From IMG/VR virus record IMGVR_UViG_3300019889_000017, positions 1 through 60,897 of that record: DNA of 60,897 bases, one strand, 5' to 3'. The stretch's first letter is position 1. Each line of letters begins with the position of its first letter. Shown here one piece after another: positions 7,841-25,487 of the stretch. The stretch is from a virus (Duplodnaviria > Caudoviricetes). The translations under genes were made by a program, and so were the position numbers. Under the pieces are notes generated by a model that saw only the letters and a list, made by a program, of their open reading frames with translations, was not told the origin of the DNA and did no database searches.

Positions 7841-7882
7841 TGTTCGGTCTCCTTGATACGTAATTGTCAAAGTTTGGGGTGC

Positions 7883-7936
7883 CCGGACTCGGGACGTGTG
7901 CGTTCTGGATGTTGGGACGGCCCTGGTCCCGAGCCG
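7883..7936 (-). ncRNA. Solitary TIGR-like stem-loop unit
   Basis: + strand CG-TGTGCGTTC-TGGATGTTG-GGACGGCCC-TGG closed by the CCGGACTCGGGA/TCCCGAGCCGG stem; loop is degenerate. Confidence 0.6.
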
Positions 7937-7977
7937 GACGAGACGTTACCTTACAGTCATGACGTACATGTAGTCAA

Positions 7978-8033
7978 CCCAGGGCAGGGCGCTTCTGCAA
8001 TAGGTATCGAGCCGAGATTGGCCCCGCCCCGGG
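7978..8033 (-). ncRNA. Solitary TIGR-like stem-loop unit
   Basis: + strand CG-CTTCTGCAA-TAGGTATCG-AGCCGAGAT-TGG in a 12-bp stem that pairs fully with G-U only on the minus strand. Confidence 0.75.
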
Positions 8034-8037
8034 AAGA

Positions 8038-13069: not shown

Positions 13070-13122
13070 CCGGGGCCGGGCGGCACTGGTTTGGGTATCG
13101 AAGCCCTTCTGGCCCAGCCCCG
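13070..13122 (-). ncRNA. Solitary TIGR-like stem-loop unit
   Basis: + strand CG-GCACTGGTT-TGGGTATCG-AAGCCCTTC-TGG closed by CCGGGGC/GCCCCGG. Confidence 0.8.
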
Positions 13123-13128
13123 GAAGCT

Positions 13129-14808
13129 CTATCGGACTGCCAGCTTCCTGACCGCCCGGCGCCCGCTGATCCGGGTGATCAGGTCGGCCGCCTCACCACG
13201 GGTGCGCACCTTGCCGAGCTTGGCCTCCGGCAGGCCCTCGCGCAGCAGGCGGCCGCGCTGCTGGTCACTGACCGGCTGGCGCAGCCAGCGCGCGTCACGT
13301 TCGACAAGCTTTTGAAACGCCTTGGCACGGTCCTCACCGATCCCCATCGCCCAGTCGGCCGGGAGCTGCTCGTGCAGGATCTCCAGCTTGGCGTTCCGGT
13401 ACGCAGCCAACCGCCAGGTGTCGACCCCCGCCGGGACCATGACGACGATCTCCTGACCGGCGCCGAGGCACCAGCCGTCCTCGACGGGTAACCAGCGCAA
13501 CCGTGAAGCGCCGAACACGTCGACCTTCCCGGCCTTGCCAGCATCGCAGTTGTCATGCCGGTGGCCGTTCTCCGAGACCACCCGGGCGGGGAGGTAGCGG
13601 CGGCACAGCGAACACCGGTGCCAGGTGACCTCACACGGCTCCCCGCACGTCGGGCACGCCTGAGCTTCGGCCTCTCCGTCGAGCTTCTTCTTGCGCTTGG
13701 TGTCAAACCCCTCGTCCCCGAGGTCGACCCTCGTGACGATGTCATGGCGCCGGGTGGCGCCGACGAAGTCAACGATCAGCAGGTCGGCCTTCCCCGGGGA
13801 CAGCCGGGTCCCGCGGCCCGCCATCTGGACGTACAGGCCGTGGCGCACGGTGGCCCGTGCGATGGCTACGCAGTCGATCGACGGCTCGTCAAAGCCCTCG
13901 ATGAAGACTCCGCAGTTGACCACGCACTGGGTCTCGCCGGTCTTCAGCCGCTTCTTGGTCGCCGTCCGGAGGTCGGTCTCGGTGTCGCTCTCCACCGCCT
14001 CAGCAGCCATGCCGCGCTTGACCAGGGCGGCCGCGAGAGCGTGTGCGGTCTTGACCGTCGGTGTGAAGGCGAGAATCTTGCGGTCACCGGCGTGCTCGAT
14101 CAGCCCGTCCGCGATCTCCTCGATGGCGCCGGAGTCCTCCATCTCACGGCCGAGGTCGCCACCGGAGAGGTCGCCGTCGCCACCCTTGCGCACCCGGGTG
14201 AGGTCCATCTTGGTCTCGACCACCACCGCCGGGAGGATCGGCACCAGGTAGCCGCCGAAGATGGCCTCCCGAATTGACATGTAAGAGACAACTTTCTCCC
14301 ACACGCCGAGCGTCTTCCCCTCCCGCTCCGGAGTGGCGGTGAAGCCGACCGCCAGAGGGCCGTGCGGGTGGAATGCGCCGAGCCCCTTCAGGAACTTCGT
14401 CCAGCTCGGCGATGGTGCGTGGTGGGCTTCGTCCACGATGATCGTCCCGAACGGCCGGCGCCCGGCCGACTCGACCAGCCGCCGGAGCCGTTCGTCGCGG
14501 TGCGCGGTAGGGATGGAGGCCACCACGCAGTCCGCGTCCACCTCGTCCCGCTCCGCCTTGACGATGCCGGTCGAGAGGTGTGGCGCCTGCCAGTCCAGTT
14601 TCTCGATGAACTGGTCGGCCAGCTCTTCGCGGTGCACACCGACGATCGTCCGGCCGCGGTCGGCGCGCCGGGTGGCGGCCGCGCCCATCACCACGCCCTT
14701 TCCGGTGCCGGTCGGGTGGACCACCAGGGGGCGGCGAACACCCTCGCGCTCGGCCGTCTCGATGGCGTCCAGAGCCTTGACCTGGTAGTCGCGGAGCTGG
14801 ATGTCCAT
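13129..14808 (-). CDS. SF2 (DEAH) helicase with Zn-ribbon
   Basis: LRDYQ, PTGTGK, DEAHH, TATP, EGFDEP, QMAGRGTR motifs; CPTC...CSLC. Confidence 0.92.
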   Translation of the reverse strand: MDIQLRDYQVKALDAIETAEREGVRRPLVVHPTGTGKGVVMGAAATRRADRGRTIVGVHREELADQFIEKLDWQAPHLSTGIVKAERDEVDADCVVASIPTAHRDERLRRLVESAGRRPFGTIIVDEAHHAPSPSWTKFLKGLGAFHPHGPLAVGFTATPEREGKTLGVWEKVVSYMSIREAIFGGYLVPILPAVVVETKMDLTRVRKGGDGDLSGGDLGREMEDSGAIEEIADGLIEHAGDRKILAFTPTVKTAHALAAALVKRGMAAEAVESDTETDLRTATKKRLKTGETQCVVNCGVFIEGFDEPSIDCVAIARATVRHGLYVQMAGRGTRLSPGKADLLIVDFVGATRRHDIVTRVDLGDEGFDTKRKKKLDGEAEAQACPTCGEPCEVTWHRCSLCRRYLPARVVSENGHRHDNCDAGKAGKVDVFGASRLRWLPVEDGWCLGAGQEIVVMVPAGVDTWRLAAYRNAKLEILHEQLPADWAMGIGEDRAKAFQKLVERDARWLRQPVSDQQRGRLLREGLPEAKLGKVRTRGEAADLITRISGRRAVRKLAVR

Positions 14809-16128: not shown

Positions 16129-16356
16129 ATGATCGCTCACATCGCCGGTTACCAGATCAACGTCTACGCCGACGCAGATGCACTCCGCACCAACCGTGAG
16201 CCGGTCGAATCGATGCCCTGTGACGCCAAGGTCGGCGGGACCCGGAGCGCGGCGGTTCAGCTCATGTCCCACGGATACCTTCCCACCTCGGGGTTCGACT
16301 TCATACCGTGTGCGGTTCCGAACACCTGGACCATCGAAGTCATCAAGGTCGCCTGA
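16129..16356 (+). CDS. Small hypothetical protein
   Basis: GAGGAGG RBS, promoter at 16061-16089, GC hairpin downstream. Confidence 0.6.
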   Translation: MIAHIAGYQINVYADADALRTNREPVESMPCDAKVGGTRSAAVQLMSHGYLPTSGFDFIPCAVPNTWTIEVIKVA

Positions 16357-16386
16357 CGGACGGGGCCCCCGCCCCGGAAGGGGGGA

Positions 16387-16644
16387 GGGGGCCGCCACGG
16401 TGTTCACTTGCTGGGTACCAGAGAAGGTGTTGACCGTGGAGTGTGGCCCCCGAGCTGGGTGGGCCGCCATTGGGTAGCGAGACGAATATGACCCAGCTCG
16501 GGGAGTCTATGAAGTTGAGCCTCCGGTCCGCGGTGGTTCGTGTATGGGTACCGAAGCGACCTTGACCGCGACCCGGAGGGGTGTGAGCCCCGAGCTGGGT
16601 GTGCGGCAAATGGGTATCGAGCGATCGATGACCCCAGCTCGGGG
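16387..16644 (-). ncRNA. TIGR-like stem-loop array, 4 units, downstream of the Tas gene
   Basis: Four hairpins, each enclosing TG-N9-TGGGTAHC(G/A)-N9(10)-TGA on the + strand; stem CCCCGAGCTGGG used twice. Confidence 0.85.
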
Positions 16645-16650
16645 AGTCTC

Positions 16651-17490
16651 CTAGTCGTTCGCAGCGTGCCAGTCCCGGGCCGCGATCCAGAGATCCTTCA
16701 GCACGGTCTTGCTGACGATCCTCAGCGCGTCGGCGTGCTGGTGGCCCGGCCGCCACGGGGCGGTGATCAGCTCCGTCTTACCGGCGCCGTTGCACTGCGG
16801 GCACGGCCGGTCGTGGACCTTCTCCGCGGTCACCGCCCGGCGCTTGTCGTAGACCTCGCGGTACGGGGAGCGAGCCTGCTTGACGCAACTCTCCGAGATC
16901 AGGTAGGCGCGCGTCTTGGCGTCCGTCGACCAGTTCGACTTCTGGCCCTTCCTGCGCCGGGCGGCACCCCGAATGCTGGCATTCTGGGTGTCGAGCTCTA
17001 TTTGACCCGAGATGCCGCCCGGCTGTTCATCCCCGCCGATGCTCCGACCTTGAGCACCGCTAGGTGTATGAACGACGGGGATCGTGTGCAGGCCACTGTA
17101 GGCCCAGAGTTCACTGACGGTGCGCGGCCGGTCGTGGAGGATGTTCCAGTACGGGTCGCCGATGGTGGCCAGTAGGCGCGCCAGCTGCTTCTCCCCGATC
17201 CCGATCTGTTCCTTCTGCCACGGCCCCAGCGGGTGCTTCCGCATCGCTCGCTGAAGGCCGAGGATGACGGCGTGCTCCAGTTTGGCGAGGTTCTCCCCGG
17301 CAACGCGGATGGCCGCGACGTCGGGGTCGTCCGGCGACAGGCCCATCCCCCGCATCTCGTCGTCCGAGTCGACTTCGGACCGGGTGGCCTGCCGGAACCG
17401 GTTGTCCGTGGCCTTGCGTAGCTCCTCCAGACCGTCGAGCTGGGCGGCCAGCAGGAAGATCGCGGTGTTGCCGCGCAACATCTCACTCAT
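16651..17490 (-). CDS. tasA: TasA-like Nop/IS110-domain RNA-binding protein, no nuclease domain
   Basis: Coiled-coil N-terminus, GIGEKQLARLLATIGD, SELWAYSGL, RRKGQKSNWS, PYREVYDKRR, HADALRIVSKTVLKDLW; no RuvC or HNH; flanked by dual-spacer arrays. Confidence 0.8.
   Translation of the reverse strand: MSEMLRGNTAIFLLAAQLDGLEELRKATDNRFRQATRSEVDSDDEMRGMGLSPDDPDVAAIRVAGENLAKLEHAVILGLQRAMRKHPLGPWQKEQIGIGEKQLARLLATIGDPYWNILHDRPRTVSELWAYSGLHTIPVVHTPSGAQGRSIGGDEQPGGISGQIELDTQNASIRGAARRRKGQKSNWSTDAKTRAYLISESCVKQARSPYREVYDKRRAVTAEKVHDRPCPQCNGAGKTELITAPWRPGHQHADALRIVSKTVLKDLWIAARDWHAAND
16959..17082 (-). ncRNA. Two TIGR-like units embedded in-frame in tasA
   Basis: TG-CTGGCATTC-TGGGTGTCG-AGCTCTATT-TGA and TG-CTCCGACCT-TGAGCACCG-CTAGGTGTA-TGA, each in a 10-13 bp stem. 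Confidence 0.75.
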
Positions 17491-18055
17491 CGCACAGCAC
17501 CTCTTCGACCTGCTCATCGGAGAGGTCGGCGACGACCTCGACGTGGTGTTGCTGCATCACCTTGACCAGCTTGCGGTACTTGCGCGCCGTGGTGGCGTTG
17601 GCCTCGGACTGCCGGTCCGACTCGGCCGCGGCGAACTCCAGGTCCGCAATCGTGCACCGCTCGATGTCACGGTACGTCTTGTTGCCCAGCCAGAGGGACA
17701 GCCGGACGCGGTGCTTCCGGAACAACGCGACGCGGGAGTTCCGGACGTTGCCGCCACCGGGGAGGACGCCGGCTGATTGGGCAGCGATGCGGGTTTGGTC
17801 CTCCCCGGTGACGGTGCTTTGACCCGGCTCGATGGTGTCCCTCTGGGTATCGGCTGCCAGTTGATCGGGCCGGGAGTCCTTGCGCGGGACGGTGGCCAGT
17901 TCCCGGCGGACCGTCTCGGTCAGCGCCTGGCGGTAGGCCTCGCTCGTTGCGGCCTTGGGCGTGCGTTCGAAGATCAGGTTGGCCAGGGTGTCCAGGTTCT
18001 CCTCGGTGGTGTCCGTGAGGATCGCCCGGATGTGCTGGCGGAGGTCGAATTTCAT
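17483..18055 (-). CDS. Tas-associated hypothetical protein (190 aa)
   Basis: MKFDLRQH start with GGAGAGG RBS; ATGAGTGA overlap with tasA. Confidence 0.75.
   Translation of the reverse strand: MKFDLRQHIRAILTDTTEENLDTLANLIFERTPKAATSEAYRQALTETVRRELATVPRKDSRPDQLAADTQRDTIEPGQSTVTGEDQTRIAAQSAGVLPGGGNVRNSRVALFRKHRVRLSLWLGNKTYRDIERCTIADLEFAAAESDRQSEANATTARKYRKLVKVMQQHHVEVVADLSDEQVEEVLCDE
17757..17874 (-). ncRNA. Two TIGR-like units embedded in-frame in the partner gene
   Basis: CG-CCGGCTGAT-TGGGCAGCG-ATGCGGGTT-TGG and TG-GTGTCCCTC-TGGGTATCG-GCTGCCAGT-TGA in 10-bp stems. Confidence 0.75.
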
Positions 18056-18087
18056 GGGTGTTCGGTTCCTCTCCGTTGGTCCATGGG

Positions 18088-18784
18088 CCGGTACGAATGG
18101 CGACGCTATGGGTATCGTATGGGCTGTGATTCGTACCGGGTCAAGAACAGACGGTGCGCTGCATTTGGGTATCGGCGGTGTATTGACCGTCTGCTCATGA
18201 CCCGGTACGAATGTAGAGTGGTTGGGTATCGGTGGGACTTTGATTCGTACCGGTTCAAGAACAGACGGTGTGCCGAGCTTGGGTATCAGCGAACCTGTGA
18301 CCATCTGCTCATGATCCGGTACGAATGTAGGAAACATGGGTATCGGACCCGCTTTGATTCGTACCGGTTCAAGAACAGACGGTGGGACGACTTTGGATAT
18401 CGGGAGGACTATGACCGTCTGCTCATGACCCGGTACGAATGGTGTCCCCATGGGTATCGGATCCGCTTTGATTCGTACCGGTTCAAGAACAGACGGTGCT
18501 TTGCCTTTGGGTATCGGAGAACCTTTAAACCGTCTGCTCATGACCTGGTACGAATGCGGGGAGCTTGGGTATCGAATCTTCACTGATTCGTACCGGCTCA
18601 TGAGCAGACGGTGCGTTCCTTATGGTTGACGGTGTCACCTTGACCGTCTGCTCATTGACCGATGTGAATGATTGATCCGTGGGTATCGCCGATACAATGA
18701 TTCACACCAGTGAATGAACAGACGGGGTTCCCCGGGGCGGTGATCGAACTCTGGATATCGCCACCATCTTGACCGCCCCGGGGA
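18088..18784 (-). ncRNA. Main TIGR-like stem-loop array, 12 units
   Basis: 57-bp units (114-bp period): TG-N9-TGGGTATCG-N9-TGA with unique 9-mers, alternating stems CCGGTACGAA and CAGACGG. Confidence 0.9.
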
Positions 18785-18790
18785 GGTCGA

Positions 18791-19243
18791 CTACTTCTCG
18801 ACGTGCCTGACAGCGACCCCGAAATGCCTGTATGGCTTCCCGGCGTACGGGCCGGTACGGGCGATCTTCTCGCCGAAGAACTTGACCGCCATACGGTCGC
18901 CGAGCTCGGCGTCCGCGTCCAGCAGCTCCCGCTTCAGCACGGAGCTGTAGCCGATGACACGGTACTTCGTGCCGTCCTTGGTCTGGATCGTGACCGTGGG
19001 AACCATCGGGTTGTCGCCGGGCTTGGCGTAGTCCGACCGGGTCTCGCCCACCTTGATCACCAGGCCGGAGATACCCTCGCCGTGCTCGGTGGGGACCCAG
19101 CCTTCGGAGTCGTCCTCCTCAACCGAGTCCAGCAGGTCATCGAAGTCATCCTCCGAGACTTCCTTGGCGGTGTCCGTCAGGCTTTCGAACAGCTCGTCCG
19201 CCTCGTCCTTGGCGGGGGGAGTCTTACTGGTGCTTCCGGCCAC
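18791..19243 (-). CDS. Putative ssDNA-binding protein
   Basis: Acidic N-terminus plus beta-rich OB-like body, near the YqaJ exonuclease; AAGGAGG RBS. Confidence 0.55.
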   Translation of the reverse strand: MAGSTSKTPPAKDEADELFESLTDTAKEVSEDDFDDLLDSVEEDDSEGWVPTEHGEGISGLVIKVGETRSDYAKPGDNPMVPTVTIQTKDGTKYRVIGYSSVLKRELLDADAELGDRMAVKFFGEKIARTGPYAGKPYRHFGVAVRHVEK

Positions 19244-19417
19244 GAGGGCCCTCCTTCAGTGAGCTGGCTAGTTAGTTGTCCCGATCCGGCTGGACGGCTT
19301 CCTCAATACGCGTAGGCAGTGCCGTCCAGCCGGACCAGTTCGGGTCTCTTAACGCCACCCGCGTAGCGCGTCCGCCTTGAGTTGATCAGACCGGTCTTGG
19401 GCGAACCTCGGACCGCT

Positions 19418-25103: not shown

Positions 25104-25364
25104 TCAGGCTGCAGCGGACACCAGGTCCGTGCGCGCGCCCTGGCCTGGGCGGCCGGCCTTCCACTCGTCCAGGCTGGCCCGGGTGAAAACGGGCAGGTTG
25201 TACTGACCCTCTGCCTTCCGGTCGGGGTTGGCCTCCGGCCCGATGCCGCGCGCGACGTAGCTGGAGAGGGTGTTCCGCTTCAGGCCCAGGTACTCGGCCG
25301 CCGGACCGTACCCGACGAATTCATCGGGAAGGTCAGACAAGATCTCCGTGGATCTCGCACCCAT
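25104..25364 (-). CDS. HTH DNA-binding protein (AlpA/excisionase-like)
   Basis: AAEYLGLKRNTLSSYVARGIGP...F...LDEWKAGRPGQG; GGAGG RBS. Confidence 0.75.
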   Translation of the reverse strand: MGARSTEILSDLPDEFVGYGPAAEYLGLKRNTLSSYVARGIGPEANPDRKAEGQYNLPVFTRASLDEWKAGRPGQGARTDLVSAAA

Positions 25365-25487
25365 GATGGTCTGGCCTCCCTGATCAACTCGCAGTCCAGT
25401 CACAGCTGTTACTTTACCGGCGCGCCTGTCAAATGACAAGCCCGCCACTTACTTGTATCGGCACATAATAAAAGTTCGCCGGGGAGG

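What the first reader, a model, noticed from the sequence alone, without database searches (positions are those of the whole stretch)
16959..17082. Guide units embedded in-frame inside the tasA coding sequence
Seen: two complete hairpin units lie right after the conserved SELWAYSGL motif. They are translated as an apparent ~40-aa insertion (VHTPSGAQGRSIGG...GQIELDTQNASIRG). Both stems pair fully with G-U on the coding strand. Inference: the mRNA is also a guide precursor, so processing would destroy the message. This suggests negative autoregulation, or that units insert into a tolerant loop.
Basis: partly seen in the sequence, partly recalled or inferred. Interest (0 to 1): 0.85.

Follow-up and report, generated by a model that had tools for sequence, protein, structure and literature searches.

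The report
Guide RNA hairpins inside a phage tasA gene
Two guide-RNA hairpin units of a TIGR-Tas system really do sit in frame inside the phage gene for the protein that uses them, in a floppy loop that carries nought to about four such units in relatives, but a 2026 preprint has already described the same arrangement in another TasA.

Summary
The window is a complete 60.9-kb soil actinophage record. The gene at 16651-17490 (-) is a nuclease-less Tas protein, TasA: its profile matches solved TasR at E 2.4e-19 and its best fold matches are TasR and TasH.

Two hairpins lie in frame on the coding strand, at 17029-17082 and 16956-17023. They share the architecture of 16 extragenic units in the window: stem, CA, 9 nt, a 9-nt loop motif, 9 nt, C, stem. 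That architecture gives 21 hits, all on the minus strand, against 1 hit in 40 shuffles.

The units fall in the wedge loop, which AlphaFold2 predicts as disordered (pLDDT below 50). In relatives the loop grows in steps of one unit. Of 84 loci, 36 of 36 short loops hold no unit, 24 of 30 middle loops hold two, and 7 of 7 long loops hold three.

Stems covary strongly: 92.8% of cells are paired, against 62.8% in shuffles. Residues encoded by the spacers are nearly random.

Xu et al. (bioRxiv, Sept 2026) already report in-frame tigRNA units in tas genes, including two in the wedge loop of Bifidobacterium longum TasA. This is therefore a new member of a known kind. Autoregulation remains untested, because no RNA data exist for this phage.

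The parts
16651..17490 (-). tasA coding sequence (279 aa as called; the open frame runs up to an ATG at 17517). It encodes a Nop-domain-only Tas protein.
   Evidence: ORF. Called protein P0001, 279 aa. Profile matches TasR 9mty_A at E 2.4e-19 and TasH at 1.6e-09. The ten best Foldseek hits are all TasR or TasH chains. PHROG 4285, annotated 'transposase', E 1.6e-88. No Pfam family.
17029..17082 (-). Intragenic unit 1. 5' arm 17082-17071, CA 17070-17069, spacer A 17068-17060, loop motif 17059-17051, spacer B 17050-17042, C 17041, 3' arm 17040-17029. It encodes roughly I137-D154 of the wedge loop.
   Evidence: motif 9 of 12, stem 11 of 12 pairs. CM 14.9 bits, E 0.081. Fold z -2.55.
16956..17023 (-). 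Intragenic unit 2. 5' arm 17023-17005, CA 17004-17003, spacer A 17002-16994, loop motif 16993-16985, spacer B 16984-16976, C 16975, 3' arm 16974-16956. Its 3' arm encodes the conserved IRGAARR.
   Evidence: motif 11 of 12, stem 19 of 19 pairs. CM 16.9 bits, E 0.022. Fold z -5.43.
18088..18784 (-). Upstream array of 12 stem-loop units with a 57-nt period and two alternating stem sequences.
   Evidence: TRF period 114. Unit list. These are training rows of model R1.
17483..18055 (-). Upstream partner gene (190 aa, phrog_4604, function unknown). Its stop overlaps the tasA start. It carries two more in-frame units, at 17823-17874 and 17751-17814.
   Evidence: CM 37.0 bits (E 5.9e-08) and 31.5 bits (E 1.9e-06), neither in the training set.
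16447..16647 (-). Three units just downstream of the tasA stop: 16585-16647, 16520-16579 and 16447-16504.
13070..13123 (-). Dispersed unit just after the helicase ORF.
   Evidence: motif 12 of 12, stem 12 of 12; 50.7 bits (a training row).
7883..8033 (-). Two dispersed intergenic units, 7978-8033 and 7883-7938, about 9 kb from tasA.
   Evidence: CM 32.3 and 26.9 bits, not in the training set. Also.

Best explanation
The segment holds two stem-loop tigRNA units of a TIGR-TasA system. They sit in frame in the part of tasA that encodes the wedge loop.

Shown here:
- The units share the dual-spacer architecture of the flanking arrays.
- They lie on the sense strand.
- Related phages and prophages keep them as base-paired stems with turned-over spacers, which indicates selection on the RNA rather than on the peptide.
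- The loop length is quantised by unit number.
- The encoded peptide is a poorly conserved stretch that is predicted to be disordered.

Inferred, by analogy with BlTasA (Xu et al. 2026):
- The tasA transcript, probably part of a single array, partner gene, tasA and downstream-units transcript, is bound at these units by TasA dimers.
- Host RNases then trim it to guide RNAs. One transcript would therefore yield either protein or guides.
- This would couple TasA level to guide supply, and could act as negative feedback.

Unit 2 is a textbook unit. Unit 1 has a diverged loop motif, but each of its three deviations is seen in other units.
For: TasA identity:
- Profile match to solved TasR (E 2.4e-19) and TasH; best fold matches are TasR and TasH.
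- The model is all-helical with N-terminal coiled-coil helices, and there is no nuclease domain hit.

Units:
- 21 motif-plus-stem hits, all on the minus strand, against 1 hit in 40 shuffles.
- The covariance model built from extragenic units finds both intragenic units full length.
- The same model on 72 related viral loci gives 263 hits at E<=0.1, 261 of them on the tas strand. Strong hits lie inside tas, for example L014 43.7 bits and L002 40.8 bits.

Location:
- The insert falls between TasR residues 213 and 219, inside the wedge G210-K230 as Xu et al. define it.
- pLDDT is below 50 for residues 137-184, against 85.6 for the whole model.

Unit-wise variation:
- In 120 homologs the loop segment measures 12 aa (2), 28-32 (11), 43-49 (103), 64-68 (3) or 86 (1).
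- In the 84 of 100 loci that have both anchors: 36 of 36 short loops hold 0 units; 10 loops of 31-50 aa hold 1 unit (4) or 0 (6); 30 loops of 51-68 aa hold 2 (24) or 1 (6); 7 of 7 loops of 69-90 aa hold 3. Of 82 units, 81 are in phase 0.

RNA-level selection:
- 46 intragenic units were chosen on the loop motif only. 92.8% of stem cells are paired, against 62.8% in shuffles and 33-58% when the partner is slid.
- All 12 pairs show changes on both sides. 160 cells have double changes, against 47.8 +/- 5.5 in shuffles.
- In the inner 10 pairs there are 27 G-U cells against 8 A-C cells, which favours the sense strand.

Peptide:
- Residues encoded by the RNA motifs (G-Q/H, D, Q/H) are conserved.
- Spacer-encoded residues have identity 0.07-0.18, while the rest of the protein is at 0.79.

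Precedent: small RNA-seq of the BlTasA RNP recovered tigRNAs from inside its coding sequence, mapped to the wedge loop (Xu et al., sections 5 and 11).
Against: - There are no RNA data for this phage, so transcription, binding and processing of these two units are inferred.
- CM scores of the two window units are modest (E 0.022 and 0.081) and sit among a few plain GC-rich hairpins.
- Unit 1's loop motif matches at only 6 of 9 positions, and its stem has a U-U mismatch.
- Neither unit has the CUU motif that Xu et al. place at processing boundaries. Only 15 of 46 intragenic rows have CTT within 10 nt 5' of the stem.
- MFE folds pair part of the 'spacer' loops internally.
- No convincing target of either unit was found in the phage itself.
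- Homologs with no intragenic unit, such as the mycobacteriophage loci, still have upstream units. The intragenic units are therefore dispensable for the system.
Confidence: 0.75

Rival explanations
1. The units are relics. Array units were copied into a tolerant loop by whatever mechanism expands arrays. They are tolerated because the wedge loop accepts disordered peptide, and they no longer serve as guides or regulators.
For: The loop tolerates 0 to about 4 units. Six of 30 middle-length loops and six of 10 short-middle loops hold fewer detectable units than their length suggests, which is consistent with decay. Window unit 1 has a diverged motif and lacks CUU. Systems with no intragenic unit exist.
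Against: Stems stay paired at 92.8% across homologs of 35-70% protein identity while their sequences and spacers are replaced. Neutral relics should lose pairing. BlTasA intragenic units are recovered in the RNP.
Confidence: 0.12
2. The units act in cis only. TasA binds the hairpins in its own mRNA and blocks translation or changes mRNA stability. No functional guide is released, or a hairpin only pauses ribosomes.
For: The hairpins lie on the sense strand, are stable (z -5.4 and -2.55) and sit in the middle of the CDS. The partner gene carries the same arrangement. No target was found.
Against: Spacers turn over completely between close relatives. That pattern is expected for guides and not for a fixed operator. 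The units keep the full dual-spacer geometry.
Confidence: 0.08
3. Selection acts on the protein. The insert is a repeat-containing wedge extension selected for its peptide (G-Q/H-x3-D-T-Q/H repeats), and the hairpins are a by-product.
For: Xu et al. describe the wedge loop as contacting the tigRNA and as separating its figure-eight conformation, and Faure et al. describe it as separating the DNA strands. Phase 0 is kept in 81 of 82 units. A few residues are conserved.
Against: The conserved residues are exactly those encoded by the RNA motifs. The other residues are near random (0.07-0.18), and the model predicts disorder. A peptide constraint cannot explain arm-to-arm covariation with 160 double changes, nor identical units in intergenic DNA.
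Confidence: 0.05

Closest known systems
Intragenic tigRNAs of Bifidobacterium longum TasA (BlTasA), and in-frame stem-loop units in tas genes generally: Xu et al., bioRxiv 10.64898/2026.09.09.750476 (I read sections 5, 6, 7, 11, 13 and 29 plus passages; figures and supplement not seen)
   Same: Both are nuclease-less TasA proteins with stem-loop units upstream and inside the coding sequence. In both, two units map to the wedge loop, the frame is kept and the region is disordered. The same idea is raised there, that guide maturation and Tas translation may be linked.
   Different: This is another host lineage: a soil actinophage whose relatives are in Streptomyces, Kitasatospora, Mycobacterium and Gordonia phages or prophages. 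There are no RNA data here. Points shown here and not found in the passages I read: wedge length quantised by unit number (0 to about 4), covariation statistics, and units embedded in the neighbouring non-tas gene. I could not compare sequences, because BlTasA was not available to me.
Stem-loop TIGR array of Peromyscus leucopus gut TasA (PlTasA): Faure et al. 2025, PMC12045711 (passages read), and bioRxiv 10.64898/2026.08.11.744272 (passages read)
   Same: TasA without a nuclease domain. [quoted passage not shown] Units are processed singly.
   Different: The units described there lie in intergenic sub-arrays. The passages I read mention no units inside the coding sequence.
Dual-repeat TIGR-TasR and TasH (PDB 9mty, 9w04)
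   Same: Homologous Nop-domain fold, a 9-nt spacer pair, a roughly 9-nt loop and a wedge loop at the same position.
   Different: Those proteins carry RuvC or HNH nuclease domains. Their guides are fixed 36-nt RNAs with conserved edge repeats. Their wedge is short (21 aa in TaTasR against 56 aa here).
IS110/IS621 bridge RNA recombinases
   Same: Related RNA-binding domain (Foldseek rank 12, E 8e-04). Many database annotations call this TasA family a 'transposase'.
   Different: No RuvC or Tnp catalytic domains here. The guides are arrays of hairpins, not one bridge RNA in an element end.

Membership tests
Tas protein, TasA subtype (TIGR-Tas) | Nop-type RNA-binding domain homologous to solved Tas proteins | tested here: met
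   Profile of 120 homologs matches 9mty_A (TasR) at E 2.4e-19 and TasH at E 1.6e-09. The AF2 model (pLDDT 85.6) has all ten best Foldseek hits in TasR or TasH chains, TMq 0.58-0.61.
Tas protein, TasA subtype (TIGR-Tas) | No RuvC or HNH nuclease domain | tested here: met
   279 aa. The model consists of two long N-terminal helices plus the C-terminal domain. No Pfam family at E<=0.1.
Tas protein, TasA subtype (TIGR-Tas) | Encoded next to an array of dual-spacer units on the same strand | tested here: met
   12 units upstream and 3 downstream, all on the minus strand.
Tas protein, TasA subtype (TIGR-Tas) | Binds tigRNA and is guided by it to DNA | not testable with these tools
   Needs pull-down, small RNA-seq or EMSA.
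Stem-loop tigRNA unit | Variable palindromic stem enclosing the unit | tested here: met
   Unit 2 has 19 of 19 pairs and unit 1 has 11 of 12. Across 46 intragenic units, 92.8% of cells are paired and all 12 pairs covary.
Stem-loop tigRNA unit | Two spacers of 8-12 nt separated by a loop of about 9 nt, flanked by conserved box C- and box D-like nucleotides | tested here: met
   Both units have 9 + 9 nt spacers around a 9-nt loop. The specified positions match at 11 of 12 in unit 2 and 9 of 12 in unit 1. Each deviation in unit 1 also occurs in other units of alignments A2 and A3. Which nucleotides are box C and box D is my reading by analogy with Faure et al..
Stem-loop tigRNA unit | CUU at the stem base (processing boundary, Xu et al.) | tested here: not met
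   Neither window unit has it. 15 of 46 intragenic rows have CTT within 10 nt 5' of the stem. Xu et al. describe the motif as frequent, not universal.
Stem-loop tigRNA unit | Expressed, processed and bound by Tas | not testable with these tools
   No RNA holder is listed for this stretch.
Intragenic (in-frame) tigRNA in the Tas wedge loop | Lies inside tas without breaking the frame | tested here: met
   Cores start at codons 141 and 163 in phase 0, and the frame is open.
Intragenic (in-frame) tigRNA in the Tas wedge loop | Maps to the wedge loop or another disordered region | tested here: met
   The insert lies between residues aligned to TasR 213 and 219, within the wedge G210-K230 of TaTasR. 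pLDDT is below 50 for 137-184.

The most novel reading that the evidence does not exclude
In this actinophage clade, guide units behave as modular in-frame cassettes that colonise disordered linkers of operon genes. There are 0 to about 4 copies in the TasA wedge loop and 0-2 in the upstream phrog_4604 partner gene. The operon mRNA would itself be the guide precursor. TasA binding and host trimming would then set a protein-to-guide feedback. The wedge peptide, which separates the DNA strands, would be encoded by the very guide RNA it contacts.
Probability: 0.25. Interest if true: 0.7.

Novelty: new member of a known kind. Interest (0 to 1): 0.4.

Why it matters
A gene whose mRNA is also the precursor of the guides its own protein uses is an unusual case of overlapping coding. 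It offers a simple way to balance effector and guide levels.

This instance adds comparative evidence to the single experimental case (BlTasA). The wedge loop grows in whole guide units. The stems are kept by compensatory change while the spacers turn over. The neighbouring gene carries such units too.

It also warns annotators on two points. This family is widely labelled 'transposase' or 'hypothetical'. And open frames can run straight through TIGR arrays: the 372-aa ORF 17483..18601 does so here.

Tried and rejected
- Pfam found nothing for TasA.
- Rfam 15 gave no family at gathering score on the whole window. At E<=1 in 16300-18900 it gave only chance miRNA hits.
- The 8-nt loop motif alone is not enriched in the window: 60 matches against 53.7 expected. 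Only motif plus stem plus spacing is informative.
- Promoter and terminator scan of 16300-19300: 0 promoter-like sites and 1 terminator-like site on the opposite strand. This is uninformative for an actinophage.
- Self-target search. For 23 units I tried both spacer arrangements, gaps of 0-2 and up to 3 mismatches against the window. It gave only self-overlaps and two hits with 2 mismatches (unit 2 at 13125-13143; an array unit at 57572-57591). My estimate of about 0.35 such hits expected by chance makes this not significant. I did not search collections for targets, because an exact 18-mer is expected by chance at that scale.
- Sequencing runs: no RNA holder is listed. Two DNA runs of one soil study may be the source. 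I did not use read laying, because contigs of DNA runs cannot show RNA ends.
- The megablast search against phages matched only Actinoplanes phage phiAsp2, over a RecE-like gene, so no close named relative exists.
- The genome-contig scan returned 27 loci, mostly labelled Actinomycetota and none Bifidobacterium. Relatedness to BlTasA could therefore not be measured.
- Sixteen of 100 loci were dropped from the unit-count table because my two peptide anchors were not both found.
- Supplements and figures of the papers were not seen. TIGRSafari and the supplementary tables of Xu et al. may already list this clade and its wedge lengths.

Full report
CONTEXT. The window is a whole virus record of 60,897 bases, rated 100% complete by CheckV. 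Two DNA runs of one soil-metagenome study hold it. Its only nucleotide match among named phages is Actinoplanes phage phiAsp2, over a RecE-like gene at 74.6% identity.

The gene in question is the minus-strand ORF 16651..17517 (288 aa). The protein collection holds it as a 279-aa product starting at 17490. That start overlaps the stop of the upstream gene.

IS IT tasA? Pfam finds nothing. PHROGs places it in phrog_4285, annotated 'transposase' (E 1.6e-88).
- A profile of 120 homologs matches the solved TIGR-TasR chain 9mty_A at E 2.4e-19 and TasH chains at E 1.6e-09.
- An AlphaFold2 model (mean pLDDT 85.6, pTM 0.79) has all ten best PDB fold matches in TasR and TasH chains. IS621 recombinase follows and Nop5 comes far behind.
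- The protein has two long N-terminal helices and the C-terminal domain, with no nuclease domain. It is a TasA in the sense of Faure et al. 2025 (PMC12045711, passages read).

THE UNITS IN THE WINDOW. A tandem array lies upstream of tasA on the same strand (TRF period 114 = 2 x 57 nt). Read on the minus strand, each unit has these parts in order:
- a stem of 8-20 bp
- CA
- 9 nt
- a 9-nt loop motif (consensus CGAUACCCA)
- 9 nt
- C
- the returning stem.

This fits published stem-loop tigRNAs, which have variable palindromic stems, two spacers of 8-12 nt and a loop of mostly 9 nt (Faure et al.; Xu et al. section 7).

There are 12 units in the array, 3 just downstream of tasA and one at 13070-13123. 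I aligned these 16 and built a covariance model from them.
- With filters off, the model finds further units that were not in its training set: 17818-17879 (37.0 bits), 17752-17813 (31.5), 7975-8036 (32.3), 7879-7941 (26.9) and 48759-48819 (23.5).
- It also finds the two units of the finding, full length and at the expected place: 16959-17020 (16.9 bits, E 0.022) and 17026-17085 (14.9 bits, E 0.081).
- These two scores alone are not decisive.

An independent scan asked for at least 9 of 12 specified positions plus at least 9 stem pairs with at most one mismatch. It gives 21 hits, all on the minus strand and including both units. Forty dinucleotide-preserving shuffles gave 1 hit in total.

THE TWO UNITS.
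- Unit 2 (16956-17023) has 19 of 19 stem pairs, four of them G-U on the coding strand by my count from the arms printed. It matches 11 of 12 specified positions and folds at z -5.43.
- Unit 1 (17029-17082) has 11 of 12 pairs, with one U-U mismatch. It matches 9 of 12 specified positions, and its loop motif matches at 6 of 9. It folds at z -2.55.
- Each of unit 1's three loop deviations also occurs in other units of alignments A2 and A3.
- Both cores begin on a codon boundary, at codons 141 and 163.
- The coding strand folds more stably than its complement for both units.

WHERE IN THE PROTEIN. The profile alignment places ...SELWAYSGLH opposite TasR residues up to 213, and ...RRRKGQKSNW opposite TasR 219-229. 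About 38 profile positions between them have no TasR counterpart. Xu et al. define the TaTasR wedge as G210-K230 (Methods passage), so the insert lies in the wedge loop.

HOMOLOGS. The word-indexed search returned 1,749 proteins at E<=1e-3, and I aligned the best 120. Between the invariant G133 and R179 the segment measures:
- 12 aa in 2 proteins
- 28-32 aa in 11
- 43-49 aa in 103
- 64-68 aa in 3
- 86 aa in 1.

These are steps of about 17-19 aa, that is, one unit.

I then fetched DNA for 72 viral loci and 27 genome loci. The genome loci are mostly labelled Actinomycetota, including Streptomyces, Kitasatospora, Parafrankia, Actinomadura and Mycobacterium.
- The model gives 263 hits at E<=0.1 on the 72 viral loci, 261 of them on the tas strand. 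Many lie inside tas.
- Of 100 loci (window included), 84 had both peptide anchors. In those 84:

| Wedge length (aa) | Loci | Units detected |
|---|---|---|
| 22-30 | 36 | 0 in all 36 |
| 31-50 | 10 | 1 in 4 loci, 0 in 6 |
| 51-68 | 30 | 2 in 24 loci, 1 in 6 |
| 69-90 | 7 | 3 in all 7 |
| 103 | 1 | 3 |

- Of 82 units, 81 are in phase 0.
- The mycobacteriophage homologs (83 of the 91 phage records) have the short loop and no intragenic unit, yet they carry upstream units.

RNA OR PEPTIDE? I took 46 intragenic units, selected on the loop motif alone and not on their stems (the two window units were added). I aligned them without gaps on the motif.
- For the 12 stem pairs, 92.8% of cells form a standard pair. 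Shuffles give 62.8 +/- 1.4% (0 of 500 reach the observed value), and slid partners give 33-58%.
- All 12 pairs show changes on both sides, and 160 cells have double changes against 47.8 +/- 5.5.
- The rows are related and partly paralogous, so these numbers are not probabilities. The gap to both controls is nevertheless large.
- G-U cells outnumber A-C cells by 27 to 8 in the inner ten pairs, as expected if the sense-strand RNA is the selected molecule.

At protein level I compared 15 close homologs with the same 47-aa segment.
- The rest of the protein has mean pairwise identity 0.79, and the insert has 0.41.
- Residues encoded by spacers are at 0.07-0.18.
- The conserved residues (G-Q/H, D, Q/H) are those encoded by the stem end, the CA and the loop motif.

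HOW IT PROBABLY WORKS.
- Shown: the anatomy, the strand, the frame, the location, the unit-wise variation and the covariation.
- Inferred: these units are transcribed within the tasA message. The likely operon is array, partner gene, tasA and three downstream units, all on one strand with overlapping stop and start.
- Also inferred: TasA binds the units and host RNases trim them to guides, as Xu et al. showed for BlTasA by small RNA-seq of the purified RNP (section 11).
- If so, a transcript gives either protein or guides, which could balance the two or feed back negatively.
- Xu et al. state this only as a possibility. They note that independent internal promoters are not excluded (sections 5 and 13).
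- I could not test it, because no RNA holder is listed. I put real, selected tigRNA-type units at about 0.9 for unit 2 and 0.75 for unit 1. I put maturation into guides from the mRNA at about 0.55, and true negative autoregulation at about 0.3.

AGAINST.
- The CM scores are modest.
- Unit 1's motif is diverged.
- Neither unit has the CUU boundary motif (15 of 46 intragenic rows have one nearby).
- MFE folds pair part of the spacer loops.
- No self-target was found.
- The units are dispensable in relatives.

COMPARISON AND NOVELTY. Two full-text searches returned a single paper that treats intragenic tigRNAs: 'tigRNA' + 'intragenic' gave 1 paper, and 'TasA' + 'TIGR' + 'stem-loop' + 'coding sequence' gave 3 papers. 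That paper is Xu et al., bioRxiv 10.64898/2026.09.09.750476, posted 2026-09-11.
- It reports that stem-loop arrays can lie within tas coding sequences without disrupting the frame, typically in disordered regions.
- It reports that BlTasA has two tigRNA-coding regions in its wedge loop.
- The finding is therefore a new member of a known kind.
- The following were not in the passages I read: the quantisation of wedge length by unit number, the covariation evidence, and the in-frame units in the neighbouring gene. I did not see the figures, supplements or TIGRSafari, which may bear on this.

NOTICED IN PASSING. The partner gene upstream (17483-18055, phrog_4604) carries two in-frame units. Its homologs carry 0, 1 or 2, all in phase 0. 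Units also occur far from tasA, in intergenic DNA.

Noticed in passing
window 17483-18055 (-); units at 17823-17874 and 17751-17814: The gene just upstream of tasA (190 aa, phrog_4604, function unknown, stop overlapping the tasA start) also carries two in-frame (phase 0) tigRNA-type units in a central linker. CM scores are 37.0 and 31.5 bits. Among ten related loci checked, its homologs carry two units (L032, L002, L008), one (L001, L003, L010) or none (L025, L038, L056, L013), all in phase 0. The passages of Xu et al. that I read mention units only inside tas.
   Followed up: partly
window 7883-7938, 7978-8033, 13070-13123 (all -): Dispersed tigRNA-type units lie in intergenic DNA 3.5-9 kb from tasA, after the helicase ORF and after the large primase/polymerase-like ORF. 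They are on the same strand as the flanking genes. They may double as processing or termination sites.
   Followed up: partly
window 25327-25380 (-) and 48759-48819 (-): Two weaker unit-like hits. One lies inside ORF 25104..25448 (motif 9 of 12, stem 11 of 12; CM 17.1 bits). The other is antisense to ORF 48207..48881 (CM 23.5 bits).
   Followed up: no
window 17483-18601 (-): A 372-aa open frame runs from inside the array through the partner gene, because the 57-nt unit is 19 codons long and has no stop in that frame. The plus strand is open across the array too (17777..18586). A gene caller could mistake array units for a repeat protein. The long N-terminal extensions of many database homologs (up to 167 aa before the core) may be of this kind.
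   Followed up: no
window 16447-16504 and 16585-16647 (-): Two downstream units share almost the same stem sequence but have entirely different spacers, as do the alternating array units. Spacers are thus exchanged within fixed stems, by an unknown mechanism.
   Followed up: no
window 13125-13143 (+): The best near-match to the combined spacers of intragenic unit 2 (2 mismatches, 1-nt gap) lies at the helicase stop, directly beside the dispersed unit at 13070-13123. I estimate about 0.35 such hits by chance over 23 units, so it is not significant.
   Followed up: partly
L014 3461-3522: This is the only one of 82 intragenic units that is not in phase 0 (it is in phase 2). It is also the best-scoring intragenic CM hit (43.7 bits), so the frame is not dictated by the RNA.
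   Followed up: no
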